This document shows, piece by piece, positions 51,001 to 54,000 of a stretch of DNA of 64,000 nt (position 1 is its first letter; each line of letters starts with the position of its first letter). The DNA is from Escherichia coli O157:H7. Lineage in GTDB: Bacteria; Pseudomonadota; Gammaproteobacteria; Enterobacterales; Enterobacteriaceae. Location: NCBI RefSeq assembly GCF_013167455.1, contig NZ_CP038328.1; one strand, written 5' to 3'. Position numbers: made by a program.

Positions 51001-54000
51001 GGAAAATCAGGCTGCCGTAAAACAGGCATTAACGGACCTGCTTTATAACGAATCGCGGCCGGGTGGACTTGTATTGCCTTCATCATTCTGGCGGGCTGTT
51101 GCAGGGGTGAAAGGACTGGAGGATTTTGAAGTTCGCAGCCCGCTGAAGTCCGTGATGGCCGGAGATACAGAGTTGCTGACCGTGGGGGAAATCACATGGC
51201 TGTAACCCTGACCCCGCATCAGCGTGCCCTGTTGCAGTTGCTGCCTGACGGGCTGGCATGGGATAAGCGGCCGTCATCCGTTCTTGCGGCTTTGTGCCTG
51301 GGCCTCAGTCATTCCACGGAGCGTGTTTCCTGGACCGGTAACCAGATGCTGGCAGAACGTTTTCCTGATTCATCCCGTCTGCTGCTGGAAGACTGGGAGC
51401 GTTATCTGGGGTTACCGGAATGTGATATGACCGGCGCAACAATTCAGGAGCGTCAGCGTTATGCCGGGAATAAATACCGGATGAAACCCTCTCTTAACCG
51501 TGAATTTTATATCCGGTTTGCGGCAGAGTTTGGTTATGAAATAGATATTCAGCCATCACCGGATTCACAGTGGGTCAGTATTGTCACGATTAACAGTGAA
51601 ACCGGCTACCGGAATATGAATGTGCTGGATGATATTCTCACGCCGCTGCGTATTTATGAAGGCGGTGCGCTGGAATGTATTCTGAACCGTTATAAGCCTG
51701 CATGGCAGACGTTTATTTACGTGTATGCAAACAGCCATGAAGAGGAGACTATTTAATGTTTCATGTTGATAATAATTCCGGCGTGGCGAATATGCCTGCG
51801 CTGGCACCGGCGCAGAGTAATACCACCACCTGGTTTACCGAAGGTGACGGACAAAAAGGTATCAGCTGGATTGGTCAGGACTGGCTGAATATTCTCCAGG
51901 CCGAACTGCTGAATATTCTGGCTGAAGCCAGTATTCAGCCGGATAAGGCGCAGTTAAACCAGCTTACGCTGTCCATTAAAGCCATTATCGCTGCGAATGC
52001 CTTTTCCCGGAAAAACAACCTGAAAGAAATTGCTGATGCCGGTGCGGAAGCCCAGCGTCTTGCCCGTGGTTATCTTGGTCTTGGGGCGCTTGCCACAAAA
52101 AACAGTCTTGGTCCCGGTGACGTTAATGCTCTGGCGAAGGATCAGAACCTTGCCGACCTGGAGAATGCGGGAACCGCCCGTAATAATCTGGATGTTTACA
52201 GCAAAAGCGAAGGTGATAACCGTTACCTGCGCAGGGAGCAGAACGGCGCAGACATTCCGGATAAAGGCGCTTTTATCGATAACGTCGGTTTACGGGAAAC
52301 GGTAAATAAGGCTGCTGATGCCCTGCCATCGGGTGGAACCGCCGTGGCAGCAAACAGACTCGCCACCCCAAGAAATATTAATGGCGTTCCTTTTGACGGA
52401 ACGCAGGATATCAACATCACGTCAGGAATGACGCAGTCAACCGCAGATGGCCGGTATGTACAGAATGTTCAGCTTGGAGCACAGAGCTATCATTCACCCG
52501 GAGGCAATGAAATATCATGGAATTACAGCGCACCTTCCGGTTGTATGCTTTCCGGTATTAACGTGCAGGAAACCGGCTCCCGGTCTGCGGACAATATCGG
52601 TGGGGTCTATTATCGCCCGGTTCAGATTTATATTAATAATGCCTGGAGAACGGTAAGTTCAGTGTAAACCACAGAAAAGGGTGCTGAATGCACCCTCTGA
52701 ATTATTCCGGTTTTTCCGGCCAGGGAATCGCCTGGTAATGCCCCTCACTGGCAATATCATTAAAGTGCATTTCTTTAAGCTGTCGGATATACGCCATCCA
52801 GCGCGTCAGCTGTAATTTATTTTCATCGCTAATCATGTCCAGTTTTAATTCTGTTTTCCAGTCATCCACGGTTTCGTTGGCTTCCTGGAGCAGCGATGAG
52901 CGACGCTTTTCAGCAACCGTCTTCCAGTTTACCGGCACCTTTGATATCAGGCCATCAGAACACTGCCAGTTACCGTCAATATTCACACCTTCCGGCAGTT
53001 CGTCCACTTCAACAACAGTAAAACCTGCCGGATATAAAGCAGAGACATCTTCAGCAACAGAGCAGATAATACCCGTTACAGGCGAAATACAGAGTTTGTA
53101 TTTCTTTGTGAAAAGCGGGATAGATTCATAAAAATCCCTTCCGTCCTCACTCTGGAAATACTGAACATCCTCACCATAGGGTTTGTGTTCCGGGTAATAT
53201 CGTTTTACGTTAATAAGCTCCATTATTTCACCTTGTTTTTGTTGAAAAGACAAAATCATCATATATTTATTCAGATAATCTGTTTTTTGAACTACTGCAC
53301 TTTTATGCGCTGGAAGCTGTTTTCCACGAACCATCTATCAGAAACTGAACAGGTCGATAATATGCGGTTACCGTTGCATTACCATCACCAGCGACATCAA
53401 GCCCTGTAAGTACGCATCCGTCAGGAACTTCAAAAATATTATATTGCATTCCAATCGTTGACCTTGAACCTCTTCGAATGCTTTGAACATAACGTGAGTC
53501 AGCCACAGACTGCGTCATCCCCGATGTAATATTTATATCCTGCGTTCCGTCAAATGGGACACCATTAATATTTCTTGGAGTGGCGAGTTTATTCGCTGCA
53601 ACAGCCGTTCCGTTCGATGGCAGGGCATTCGCGGCCCTGTTTACAGTATCCCGTAAACCGAGGTTTCAGGGATGCCGTATATCTGCTTTAAAAGGCCTTT
53701 CCACCTCTTTTTAAGGAAGGTAAATACATGCTGATTGGCTATATACGCGTATCAACAAATGACCAGAACACCGGTTTACAAAGAAATGCGCTGGAATGTG
53801 CAGGATGTGAGCAGATTTTTGAAGACAAAATGAGTGGTAAAACGACACAGCGGCCGGGACTGAAGCGGGCACTGAAGAAACTAAAACCCGGTGACACACT
53901 GATGGTCTGGAAACTGGACAGGCTGGGGCGCAGTATGCGCCACCTTGTTGCGCTGACAGATGAATTACAGCAACAGGGGATAAATTTTCGTAGTCTTACT

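What the first reader, a model, noticed from the sequence alone, without database searches (positions are those of the whole stretch)
52273..53672. Gin-invertible tail-fibre segment is asymmetric: two alternative fibre tips but only one assembly chaperone
gix-like sites at 52273-52298 and 53649-53672 flank a ~1.4 kb segment. Inside, the 3' end of S (Sv, ~75 aa) and a start-less minus-strand frame (S'v, ~70 aa after a ~40-aa region nearly identical to S) are alternative C-terminal tips (both contain YYRPVQ and W-T-SS near the end). The only tail-fibre-assembly gene (Tfa with IPWPEKP) is on the minus strand downstream of S'v, so in the present orientation the fibre S-Sv has no co-oriented chaperone, whereas after inversion S-S'v would be followed by it. 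Mu G and P1 C segments carry a chaperone for each orientation, so this is either a chaperone-independent tip or a decayed half of a host-range switch.
Basis: partly seen in the sequence, partly recalled or inferred. Interest (0 to 1): 0.5.

Follow-up and report, generated by a model that had tools for sequence, protein, structure and literature searches.

The report
One-chaperone invertible tail-fibre switch
A Mu-like prophage of E. coli (the O157 Sakai "Sp18" type) carries a working Gin-type DNA switch that swaps the tip of its tail fibre but has only one fibre-assembly chaperone gene instead of the usual two, and comparison with relatives shows this is a conserved design, not decay.

Summary
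Two gix sites (52273-52298 and 53648-53673) flank a 1.37-kb segment that holds two alternative fibre tips and a single tfa gene, next to a gin invertase gene.

The switch is real:
- Inverting the segment in silico gives an in-frame S-S'v protein of 295 aa.
- Both orientations occur among near-identical prophages in complete E. coli genomes (181 versus 23). Two genomes each carry two copies in opposite states.

The asymmetry is a family trait. Every Sp18-type relative examined has exactly one tfa, and it always lies convergent with the Sv-like tip.

The "decayed half" reading is rejected. Sv-like tips are under strong purifying selection (dN/dS 0.05-0.16). Derivatives that have lost S'v and gin keep S-Sv and an intact convergent tfa (dN/dS 0.13-0.20).

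My best reading is a shared, promiscuous chaperone. One Tfa type, with a conserved N-terminal half, is found with five tip types. Its nearest outside relative, in Rac-SA53, directly follows an Sv-like tip.

The open step is how tfa is transcribed when Sv is the expressed tip. I found only a candidate internal promoter-like stretch. A chaperone-independent Sv tip is not excluded.

The prophage and its invertible region are already published. I found no description of the one-chaperone layout. Verdict: new variant of a known kind, moderate interest.

The parts
51756..52285 (+). Constant part of tail-fibre gene S (residues 1-177), which attaches the fibre to the baseplate
   Evidence: Matches the N-terminus of Mu tail fibre S (PDB 5yvq_A residues 1-191, E 1e-48) and phrog_1833 tail fibre. 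It follows the baseplate genes in Mu order.
52273..52298 (.). gixL, left crossover site, centre TC at 52285-52286
   Evidence: 22/26 identical to Mu gixL/gixR. Conserved in all relatives.
52287..52667 (+). Sv, the currently expressed variable end of S (126 aa counted from GLRE; the last 70 aa are the specific tip)
   Evidence: ORF. The tip aligns to Mu S residues 434-503. Closest outside homologue is the Rac-SA53 fibre tip, 65%. dN/dS among alleles is 0.05-0.16.
52281..52462 (.). Left arm of the 182-nt inverted repeat; it encodes the shared start of both tips
   Evidence: the repeat finder I1, 79% complementary with 53484-53665.
52676..52698 (-). Hairpin between the convergent stop codons of Sv and tfa. 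It is terminator-like on the minus strand (9-bp stem followed by TTTTCTGTGGTTT).
   Evidence: Terminator scan. The same hairpin is present in relatives.
52702..53223 (-). tfa, the only tail-fibre assembly (chaperone) gene, 173 aa
   Evidence: PF02413 E 6e-18; phrog_136 E 3e-56; Mu U 5yvq_B E 3e-14. No second copy in the window.
53238..53291 (-). Promoter-like stretch in the 79-nt gap between S'v and tfa (candidate internal tfa promoter; inference only)
   Evidence: Best non-self match in the whole window to the late-type promoter at 54322: 33/54 ungapped against a next-best of 29, with TATGAT, TTATC and CAAAA at identical spacing. None of 20,000 shuffles reaches this score. It is not found by the sigma-70 scan and is absent from the other gap types.
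53303..53660 (-). S'v, the promoterless and start-less alternative variable end (118 aa counted from GLRD)
   Evidence: Frame shown. In-silico inversion fuses it in frame to S residues 1-177, giving 295 aa. Genomes in that state annotate it as a complete tail protein.
53648..53673 (.). gixR, right crossover site, centre GA at 53660-53661
   Evidence: 19/26 identical to Mu gix. Its inner half-site is identical to that of gixL.
53728..54288 (+). gin-type serine DNA invertase, 186 aa
   Evidence: phrog_125 DNA invertase E 6e-95. 73% identical to Mu Gin, with the N-terminal YIRVSTNDQ motif conserved.
54322..54355 (+). Late-type promoter motif upstream of the 682-aa gene at the Mu mom position (context)
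   Evidence: CGCAAAR-N20-24-TAYNNT also occurs upstream of the lys-position and I-position genes (30423, 38351). There are only four matches in the window (alignment).

Best explanation
This is the host-range switch of an Sp18-type Mu-like prophage.

Gin recombines gixL and gixR and flips a 1.37-kb segment. The constant part of fibre gene S (residues 1-177) is then joined either to Sv or to S'v. Unlike Mu, P1 and SfMu, the segment holds a single tfa. It lies behind S'v and converges on Sv.

I propose that this one Tfa is a promiscuous chaperone that assembles both alternative tips. When S'v is on, tfa is the next gene on the late S transcript. When Sv is on, as in this window, tfa must be transcribed leftwards from a promoter of its own inside the segment. 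The 79-nt S'v-tfa gap is the candidate.

Shown: the switch anatomy, the in-frame fusion, both orientations in nature, conservation of the one-tfa layout, purifying selection on both tips and on tfa, and the pairing of one Tfa type with several tip types.

Inferred: that Tfa acts on Sv, and that tfa is expressed in the Sv-on state.
For: Switch:
- gix sites, the inverted repeat and the in-frame product; gin.
- Both orientations occur at 99% identity or more in complete E. coli genomes. 181 records match the window orientation at full length and 23 match the inverted one.
- NZ_CP024056.1 (H28 and H48) and IMG/VR genome 2617271340 (L040 and L042) each hold two copies in opposite states.

Conserved layout:
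- All 29 tabulated sequences (25 IMG/VR loci, 3 RefSeq loci and the window) have one tfa.
- Wherever the opposite tip could be read, it is convergent with an Sv-like tip, A1 or A2. The co-oriented tips are of types B1, B2 or B3.

Not decay:
- dN/dS is 0.05-0.16 for the chaperone-less tips, with dS from 0.7 to saturation.

Shared chaperone:
- The Tfa N-terminal half is conserved across all five tip types.
- Tfa type T1 pairs with B1 or B2. Type T2 pairs with B2, B3 or no B tip. The B tips are no more alike to each other than to Sv, about 40%.
- The nearest outside Tfa N-domain (Rac-SA53, 66%) directly follows the nearest outside homologue of Sv (65%). CR8 and POP15 show the same pairing.
- Sv-like and S'v-like tips in five other phages are each followed within 12 nt by a co-oriented tfa. 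Tips of this family are therefore normally chaperone clients.

Locked derivatives:
- L010-12, L018, L022, L024 and L033, and about seven complete E. coli genomes, have lost S'v, gixR and most of gin. They keep S-tipA and an intact convergent tfa with its upstream region.
- tfa dN/dS among them is 0.13-0.20.

Candidate promoter.
Against: - No promoter for tfa in the Sv-on state is demonstrated.
- The sigma-70 scan finds none upstream of tfa in the window.
- The family's late-promoter box (CGCAAAR) is not present at the right spacing.
- The promoter-like similarity exists only in the B1-type gap, not in the B2/locked or B3 gaps.
- Sv-like tips elsewhere pair with both Tfa N-domain types, so the cognate-pair argument is weak.
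- Tip and tfa modules recombine freely, and locked-form tfa alleles are not monophyletic (distances). Purifying selection on tfa could therefore have acted in invertible relatives.
- There is no expression, assembly or infection data for either orientation.
Confidence: 0.5

Rival explanations
1. Sv (and the A2 tips) fold and trimerise without any Tfa. The single tfa serves only the co-oriented tips (S'v, B2, B3). The switch therefore alternates between a chaperone-independent and a chaperone-dependent fibre.
For: - There is no co-oriented tfa for Sv in any relative.
- No convincing promoter reads tfa in the Sv-on state.
- tfa always sits directly behind the B-type tips, as expected for a cognate pair.
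- The fibre is short (303 aa against 504 aa in Mu), with the tip joined almost directly to the baseplate-binding part.
Against: - Locked derivatives have lost every B-type tip yet keep an intact tfa with dN/dS 0.13-0.20. A B-only chaperone should decay there.
- Homologous tips in Rac-SA53, a P2-type Peduovirus, SfMu, CR8 and POP15 are all followed by a tfa.
- Sv shares the YYRPVQ...W.T.SS end with the tips that sit directly upstream of tfa.
Confidence: 0.25
2. Sv needs a Tfa, but it is supplied in trans by tfa genes of other prophages in the same cell. STEC genomes carry many lambdoid and P2-like prophages, so the phage could afford to lose its own Sv-side chaperone.
For: - Many other prophage-type matches occur in the same genomes: 800 records match parts of the query, with up to 8-9 places per genome.
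- Tfa proteins are known to cross-complement between phages: lambda Tfa can replace T4 gp38. This rests on my own knowledge and was not tested here.
Against: - It does not explain why the convergent tfa is retained and conserved in the locked derivatives.
- The same prophage family occurs in diverse non-STEC E. coli from mouse, seawater and human sources, with different prophage sets.
- Dependence on a helper would be fragile for a phage that moves to new hosts. Published comparison shows strain-specific insertion sites (PMC7430833).
Confidence: 0.1
3. Half of the switch is dead. Sv lost its chaperone, so the Sv-on state yields fibre-less, non-infective particles. The inversion then acts as an on/off switch or is on its way to loss.
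For: Only the missing co-oriented tfa and the absence of a demonstrated tfa promoter.
Against: - Sv-like tips are intact in all relatives, with dN/dS 0.05-0.16 over deep divergence.
- Sv-on is the state of 181 of 204 full-length matches in complete genomes.
- The derivatives that lost gin are fixed in the Sv-on state and occur in several unrelated strains. One genome (IMG/VR 2617270962: L011, L012) holds two copies.
Confidence: 0.05

Closest known systems
Phage Mu G segment (Gin/gix; Sv-U / U'-S'v), also in SfMu and D108
   Same: - The gene order is the same: baseplate genes, then S, the invertible segment, gin, and a late-promoter gene.
- Gin is 73% identical.
- The 26-bp gix sites match at 19-22 of 26 positions.
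- The crossover lies inside S at the equivalent residue (177 here, about 170 in Mu).
- The S N-terminus and the extreme tip are homologous to Mu S, and Tfa is homologous to Mu U.
   Different: - The segment is 1.37 kb instead of 3 kb.
- The variable ends are about 120 aa instead of about 330 aa.
- There is one tfa instead of two, and it converges on the Sv tip.
- A 79-nt gap separates S'v from tfa, where Mu and SfMu have 1-3 nt between fibre gene and chaperone gene.
- A SASA/DUF6645 gene occupies the place of com/mom.
Sp18, the Mu-like prophage of E. coli O157:H7 Sakai
   Same: The window's segment matches Mu-like prophages of many O157:H7 strains at 99.3-99.4% identity and prophages of other E. 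coli strains at 100%. Asadulghani et al. [quoted passage not shown]
   Different: In the accessible literature I found no description of the one-chaperone layout, of its conservation, or of the locked derivatives. I did not align the window with the Sakai record itself.
Fibre-chaperone pair of Escherichia phage Rac-SA53 (tail1/tail2)
   Same: It has the closest outside homologue of the Sv tip (65%) and of the Tfa N-terminal half (66%). The pair is adjacent.
   Different: The Rac-SA53 genes are co-oriented and 2 nt apart, with no invertase. Here the same kinds of partner face each other.
P1 C segment (Cin) and e14 P segment (Pin)
   Same: These are serine-invertase switches that exchange tail-fibre C-termini. 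This rests on established knowledge and was not examined here.
   Different: As I recall them, each carries a tfa gene for each orientation. I did not retrieve these loci, so this comparison is a lead, not a test.

Membership tests
Gin/Hin/Cin/Pin-type invertible tail-fibre switch (Mu G-segment type) | Adjacent serine recombinase of the DNA-invertase subfamily | tested here: met
   phrog_125 DNA invertase E 6e-95. 73% identity to Mu Gin, with the YIRVSTNDQ N-terminus.
Gin/Hin/Cin/Pin-type invertible tail-fibre switch (Mu G-segment type) | Two 26-bp crossover sites in inverted orientation with matching central dinucleotides | tested here: met
   Sites at 52273-52298 and 53648-53673 match Mu gix at 22/26 and 19/26. 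The centres are TC and GA.
Gin/Hin/Cin/Pin-type invertible tail-fibre switch (Mu G-segment type) | The crossover lies inside the fibre gene, so inversion gives an in-frame alternative C-terminus | tested here: met
   In-silico inversion gives a 295-aa S-S'v protein.
Gin/Hin/Cin/Pin-type invertible tail-fibre switch (Mu G-segment type) | Both orientations occur in nature | tested here: met
   181 versus 23 full-length matches in complete E. coli genomes. Opposite states occur within one genome.
Gin/Hin/Cin/Pin-type invertible tail-fibre switch (Mu G-segment type) | Fis-dependent recombinational enhancer within the 5' part of the invertase gene | not tested
   Only the DNA identity to Mu gin was computed: 77-80% over the first 120 nt. 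Fis sites were not mapped.
Gin/Hin/Cin/Pin-type invertible tail-fibre switch (Mu G-segment type) | One co-oriented assembly chaperone gene behind each alternative tip (Sv-U and S'v-U') | tested here: not met
   There is a single tfa in the window and in all Sp18-type relatives. Mu, SfMu and the more distant L038 have two.
Tail-fibre assembly proteins (Pfam Caudo_TAP PF02413; Mu U / P2 G / lambda Tfa) | Conserved C-terminal assembly domain ending in WPxxPE, plus a variable N-terminal fibre-binding domain | tested here: met
   PF02413 over residues 62-173, E 6e-18. Mu U 5yvq_B E 3e-14. Alignment with U, U', P2 G and Rac-SA53 Tfa.
Tail-fibre assembly proteins (Pfam Caudo_TAP PF02413; Mu U / P2 G / lambda Tfa) | Chaperone activity on the fibre encoded next to it | not testable with these tools
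   This needs co-expression or genetic tests.
Mu-type tail fibre S | N-terminal baseplate-binding region and C-terminal tip homologous to Mu S | tested here: met
   5yvq_A residues 1-191 match at E 1e-48, and the tip aligns to Mu S residues 434-503. The roughly 240-aa middle of Mu S has no counterpart here.

The most novel reading that the evidence does not exclude
A DNA-inversion host-range switch can run on one shared, orientation-independent chaperone. A single promiscuous Tfa is transcribed from its own promoter inside the invertible segment and assembles whichever of several interchangeable fibre tips is fused to S. Tip cassettes can then be swapped without a matching chaperone. The layout recurs in at least one more distant lineage (L046).
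Probability: 0.4. Interest if true: 0.55.

Novelty: new variant of a known kind. Interest (0 to 1): 0.42.

Why it matters
Tail-fibre chaperones are usually treated as private partners of the fibre encoded just upstream, and the textbook invertible segments carry one for each tip. A widespread, active prophage family of pathogenic E. coli keeps two to five interchangeable tips with one chaperone.

If the chaperone is shared, chaperone specificity is looser than assumed. That is useful for engineering phage or tailocin host range by tip swapping.

If Sv needs no chaperone, it would be a natural chaperone-free tip of the Mu S / P2 H family.

Either outcome can be tested directly with a gin-deleted, tfa-deleted Sp18-type prophage.

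The result also flags systematic mis-annotation of the silent tip in RefSeq records.

Tried and rejected
- **Second tfa in the window.** tblastn at E up to 10 returned only noise.
- **Sigma-70 promoter upstream of tfa, or one reading leftwards from the gin side.** None was found. My inspection of the gixR junction on the minus strand also gave nothing.
- **Phage late promoter for tfa.** I derived a family late-promoter box from the lys-, I- and mom-position promoters. It is not present upstream of tfa at the right spacing. An equivalent of Mu's PP promoter inside the N-position gene was not found either.
- **My first 25-nt shared pattern.** It was built from the two sequences it matches, so it is circular. 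I replaced it with an unbiased whole-window scan and shuffles.
- **Extending the promoter similarity to the other gap types.** This failed; P was 0.06-0.8.
- **Covariation of Tfa with one tip position.** There is no clean covariation because the modules are mosaic. The variable first 20 residues of Tfa track the adjacent upstream cassette, which is linkage rather than function.
- **Locked-form tfa alleles as a clade.** They are not monophyletic by pairwise dS, so selection after locking cannot be isolated.
- **Pfam and NCBIfam on S.** No hits.
- **Literature.** Searches for a description of a one-chaperone invertible segment found none.
- **Not run.** Structure prediction was skipped because a single-chain model of a trimeric tip plus chaperone would not be informative. 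The large genome and metagenome scans were skipped because IMG/VR and the E. coli collection gave enough relatives.
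Full report
**What is there**

S runs 51756-52667 on the plus strand (303 aa). A 26-bp site at 52273-52298 and its inverted partner at 53648-53673 match the Mu gix site at 22/26 and 19/26 positions and share the central TC dinucleotide. These sites form the outer ends of a 182-nt inverted repeat that is 79% complementary.

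Inside the segment:
- The end of S (Sv).
- A 34-nt spacer with a hairpin.
- A minus-strand tfa at 53223..52702 (173 aa; PF02413 E 6e-18; phrog_136; Mu U 5yvq_B).
- A 79-nt gap.
- A start-less minus-strand frame, S'v, at 53660..53303.

A gin-type invertase gene follows at 53728-54288 (phrog_125 E 6e-95; 73% identical to Mu Gin). From the crossover at S residue 177, the two tips share 49 of the next 56 residues and then diverge over 70 and 62 residues. Both end in YYRPVQ...W.T.SS. tblastn with Tfa finds no second copy in the 64-kb window.

**Context**

The window holds a Mu-like prophage, with repressor and transposase genes near 20-23 kb and baseplate genes in Mu order just before S. The segment matches many E. 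coli chromosomes at 99-100% identity, including many O157:H7 strains. This is the Sp18 type of prophage. Asadulghani et al. [quoted passage not shown] Mu-like prophages sit at strain-specific sites in O157 strains, so the family is mobile (PMC7430833).

**The switch works**

Inverting 52285-53661 in silico fuses S residues 1-177 in frame to S'v, giving a 295-aa protein directly followed by tfa. In 5,426 complete E. coli genomes:
- 181 records match the window orientation over its full length.
- 23 records match the inverted construct over its full length.
- At 99% identity or more, the counts are 140 and 13.

Strain SMN197SH3 (NZ_CP024056.1) carries two copies in opposite states (H28 and H48). 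IMG/VR genome 2617271340 does the same (L040 and L042, with identical alleles).

**The asymmetry is a conserved design**

I fetched 53 IMG/VR loci with the constant part of S and tabulated the 25 that cover the segment, together with 3 RefSeq loci and the window. All 29 have exactly one tfa. Wherever the opposite tip could be read, it converges on an Sv-like tip: type A1 (79-100% identical to Sv) or type A2 (about 46%). It is co-oriented with, and downstream of, a second tip of type B1 (S'v), B2 or B3.

Mu, SfMu and a more distant relative (L038, S N-terminus 64% identical) have the canonical two tfa genes. Another distant relative (L046, 73%) again has one convergent tfa, plus three gix-like sites. 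The one-chaperone layout therefore recurs.

**Not decay**

Nei-Gojobori dN/dS for the specific part of the chaperone-less tips is 0.05-0.16, over divergences from dS 0.7 to saturation. No allele is disrupted except L017, which has a premature stop.

Seven IMG/VR loci (L010-12, L018, L022, L024, L033) and about seven complete E. coli genomes carry a derivative in which a single deletion has removed the B-type tip, gixR and gin. A 37-nt remnant of the gin 3' end remains. These loci keep S-tipA and an intact convergent tfa with about 110 nt of its upstream region. Among these locked forms tfa has dN/dS 0.13-0.20.

A chaperone that served only the lost B tip should decay in these loci. A dead Sv half should not be the half that is kept.

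**Whose chaperone is it?**

- The Tfa N-terminal half is the part that binds the fibre tip in the Mu S-U structure, as I recall from North et al. 2019. That paper is cited in PMC9881135, but I did not read it here. This half is conserved across all variants, whichever tips they carry.
- Tfa type T1 occurs with B1 or B2. Type T2 occurs with B2, B3 or no B tip, and with A1 or A2. The B types are about 40% identical to each other and to Sv. A Tfa that copes with two B types could therefore plausibly cope with Sv.
- Outside the family, the closest Tfa N-domain is Rac-SA53 tail2 (66%). It lies 2 nt behind the closest homologue of Sv (65%). Cronobacter CR8 and Pectobacterium POP15 show the same pairing.
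- The closest homologue of S'v (Hafnia yong1, 57%) is followed by a Tfa with a Mu-U-like N-domain.
- This cognate-pair argument is only suggestive. Sv-like tips in P2-type phages and SfMu pair with U-like chaperones.
- In every outside phage examined, tips of this family are followed within 12 nt by a co-oriented tfa. They are normally chaperone clients.

**The unsolved step**

If Tfa serves Sv, it must be made while pointing against the late S transcript.
- The sigma-70 consensus scan finds no promoter upstream of tfa or reading leftwards from the gin side.
- I derived a late-promoter box for this phage, CTGAnAT..CGCAAAR-N20-24-TAYNNT. It occurs upstream of the lys-, I- and mom-position genes at 30423, 38351 and 54322, and only once elsewhere in 64 kb. 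tfa lacks it at the right spacing.
- However, the S'v-tfa gap (53238-53291, minus strand) is the best non-self ungapped match in the whole window, on both strands, to the promoter at 54322. It scores 33/54 against a next-best of 29, with TATGAT, TTATC and CAAAA at identical spacing. None of 20,000 shuffles reaches 33; the maximum was 30.
- The CGC of the box reads TTC in this stretch. The similarity is also absent from the B2/locked and B3 gap types.
- The gaps themselves (51-121 nt) are unusual, since Mu and SfMu have 1-3 nt between fibre gene and chaperone gene.
- In locked L022, three overlapping promoter-like sites lie 125-175 nt upstream of tfa on the minus strand. The best is ATGATA-17-TATAAT.

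I treat an internal tfa promoter as a candidate, not a finding.

**Verdict**

It is certain that this is a Gin/gix host-range switch of an Sp18-type Mu-like prophage, and that it is real and active in nature. It is well supported that the one-chaperone layout is conserved and that both tips are functional.

| Reading | Confidence |
|---|---|
| One promiscuous Tfa serves both tips and is expressed independently of orientation | about 0.5 |
| Sv is a chaperone-independent tip | about 0.25 |
| Chaperone supplied by other prophages | about 0.1 |
| Dead half | about 0.05 |

The locus fails one defining feature of the Mu G-segment type, a chaperone for each orientation, and meets the others that were tested. 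It is a new variant of a known kind, in a prophage whose invertible region is already on record.

**Also seen**

- Sv-like alleles are anciently diverged, while each B type is nearly invariant (dS at most 0.04).
- Assemblies favour the Sv-on state about 8 to 1.
- RefSeq annotates the silent S'v as a 67-aa "tail fiber protein", and a 61-aa hypothetical ORF across gixR.
- The gene at Mu's mom position encodes a SASA esterase plus DUF6645 protein.

Noticed in passing
window 30423-30457, 38351-38385, 54322-54355 (+): A shared promoter-like motif (CTGAnAT..CGCAAAR, then 20-24 nt, then TAYNNT) lies upstream of the genes at Mu's lys, I and mom positions. There is only one other match in 64 kb (18987, minus strand, outside the prophage). 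It differs from Mu's CCATAACCCC late-promoter box. The C activator homologue (29992-30417) has diverged strongly from Mu C. No equivalent of Mu's PP promoter was found.
   Followed up: partly
window 54379-56427 (+): A 682-aa protein with a SASA carbohydrate-esterase domain (residues 119-316) and DUF6645 (residues 527-645) sits where Mu has com/mom, behind a late-type promoter. It may modify surface sugars or be a virion-associated enzyme. Its function is unknown (PHROG 143).
   Followed up: partly
L022 5001-6772; also L010-L012, L018, L024, L033 and E. coli genomes H188-H195: These 'locked' relatives lack S'v, gixR and gin, apart from a 37-nt remnant of the gin 3' end. S-tipA and an intact tfa face each other permanently, and a divergent intergenic region of about 300 nt separates tfa from the DUF6645 gene. 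Three promoter-like sites lie on the tfa strand at L022 6592-6644.
   Followed up: partly
L046 5001-8871 (IMG/VR 2878893965_000006): This more distant relative has three gix-like sites (5826, 7840, 8206) and again a single tfa convergent with the expressed tip. Here the Sv-like tip is the one co-oriented with tfa. It may be a multi-site inversion system.
   Followed up: no
window 53303-53506 (-) and 53529-53714 (+), as annotated in L001: RefSeq calls the silent S'v a 67-aa 'tail fiber protein' starting at an internal ATG, and annotates a 61-aa 'hypothetical protein' across gixR. In genomes in the other state, the silent Sv is marked as an incomplete pseudogene. These are annotation artefacts of invertible segments.
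   Followed up: yes
tip alleles across L001-L043: The chaperone-less tips (A1, A2) show deep allelic divergence, with dS from 0.7 to saturation. Each tfa-linked tip type (B1, B2, B3) is almost invariant, with dS at most 0.04. The two sides of the switch therefore have very different histories.
   Followed up: partly
E. coli complete genomes: Orientation is biased: 181 full-length matches are in the Sv-on state against 23 in the S'v-on state. This could reflect clonal sampling, the orientation of the infecting phage, or an unequal inversion equilibrium.
   Followed up: no
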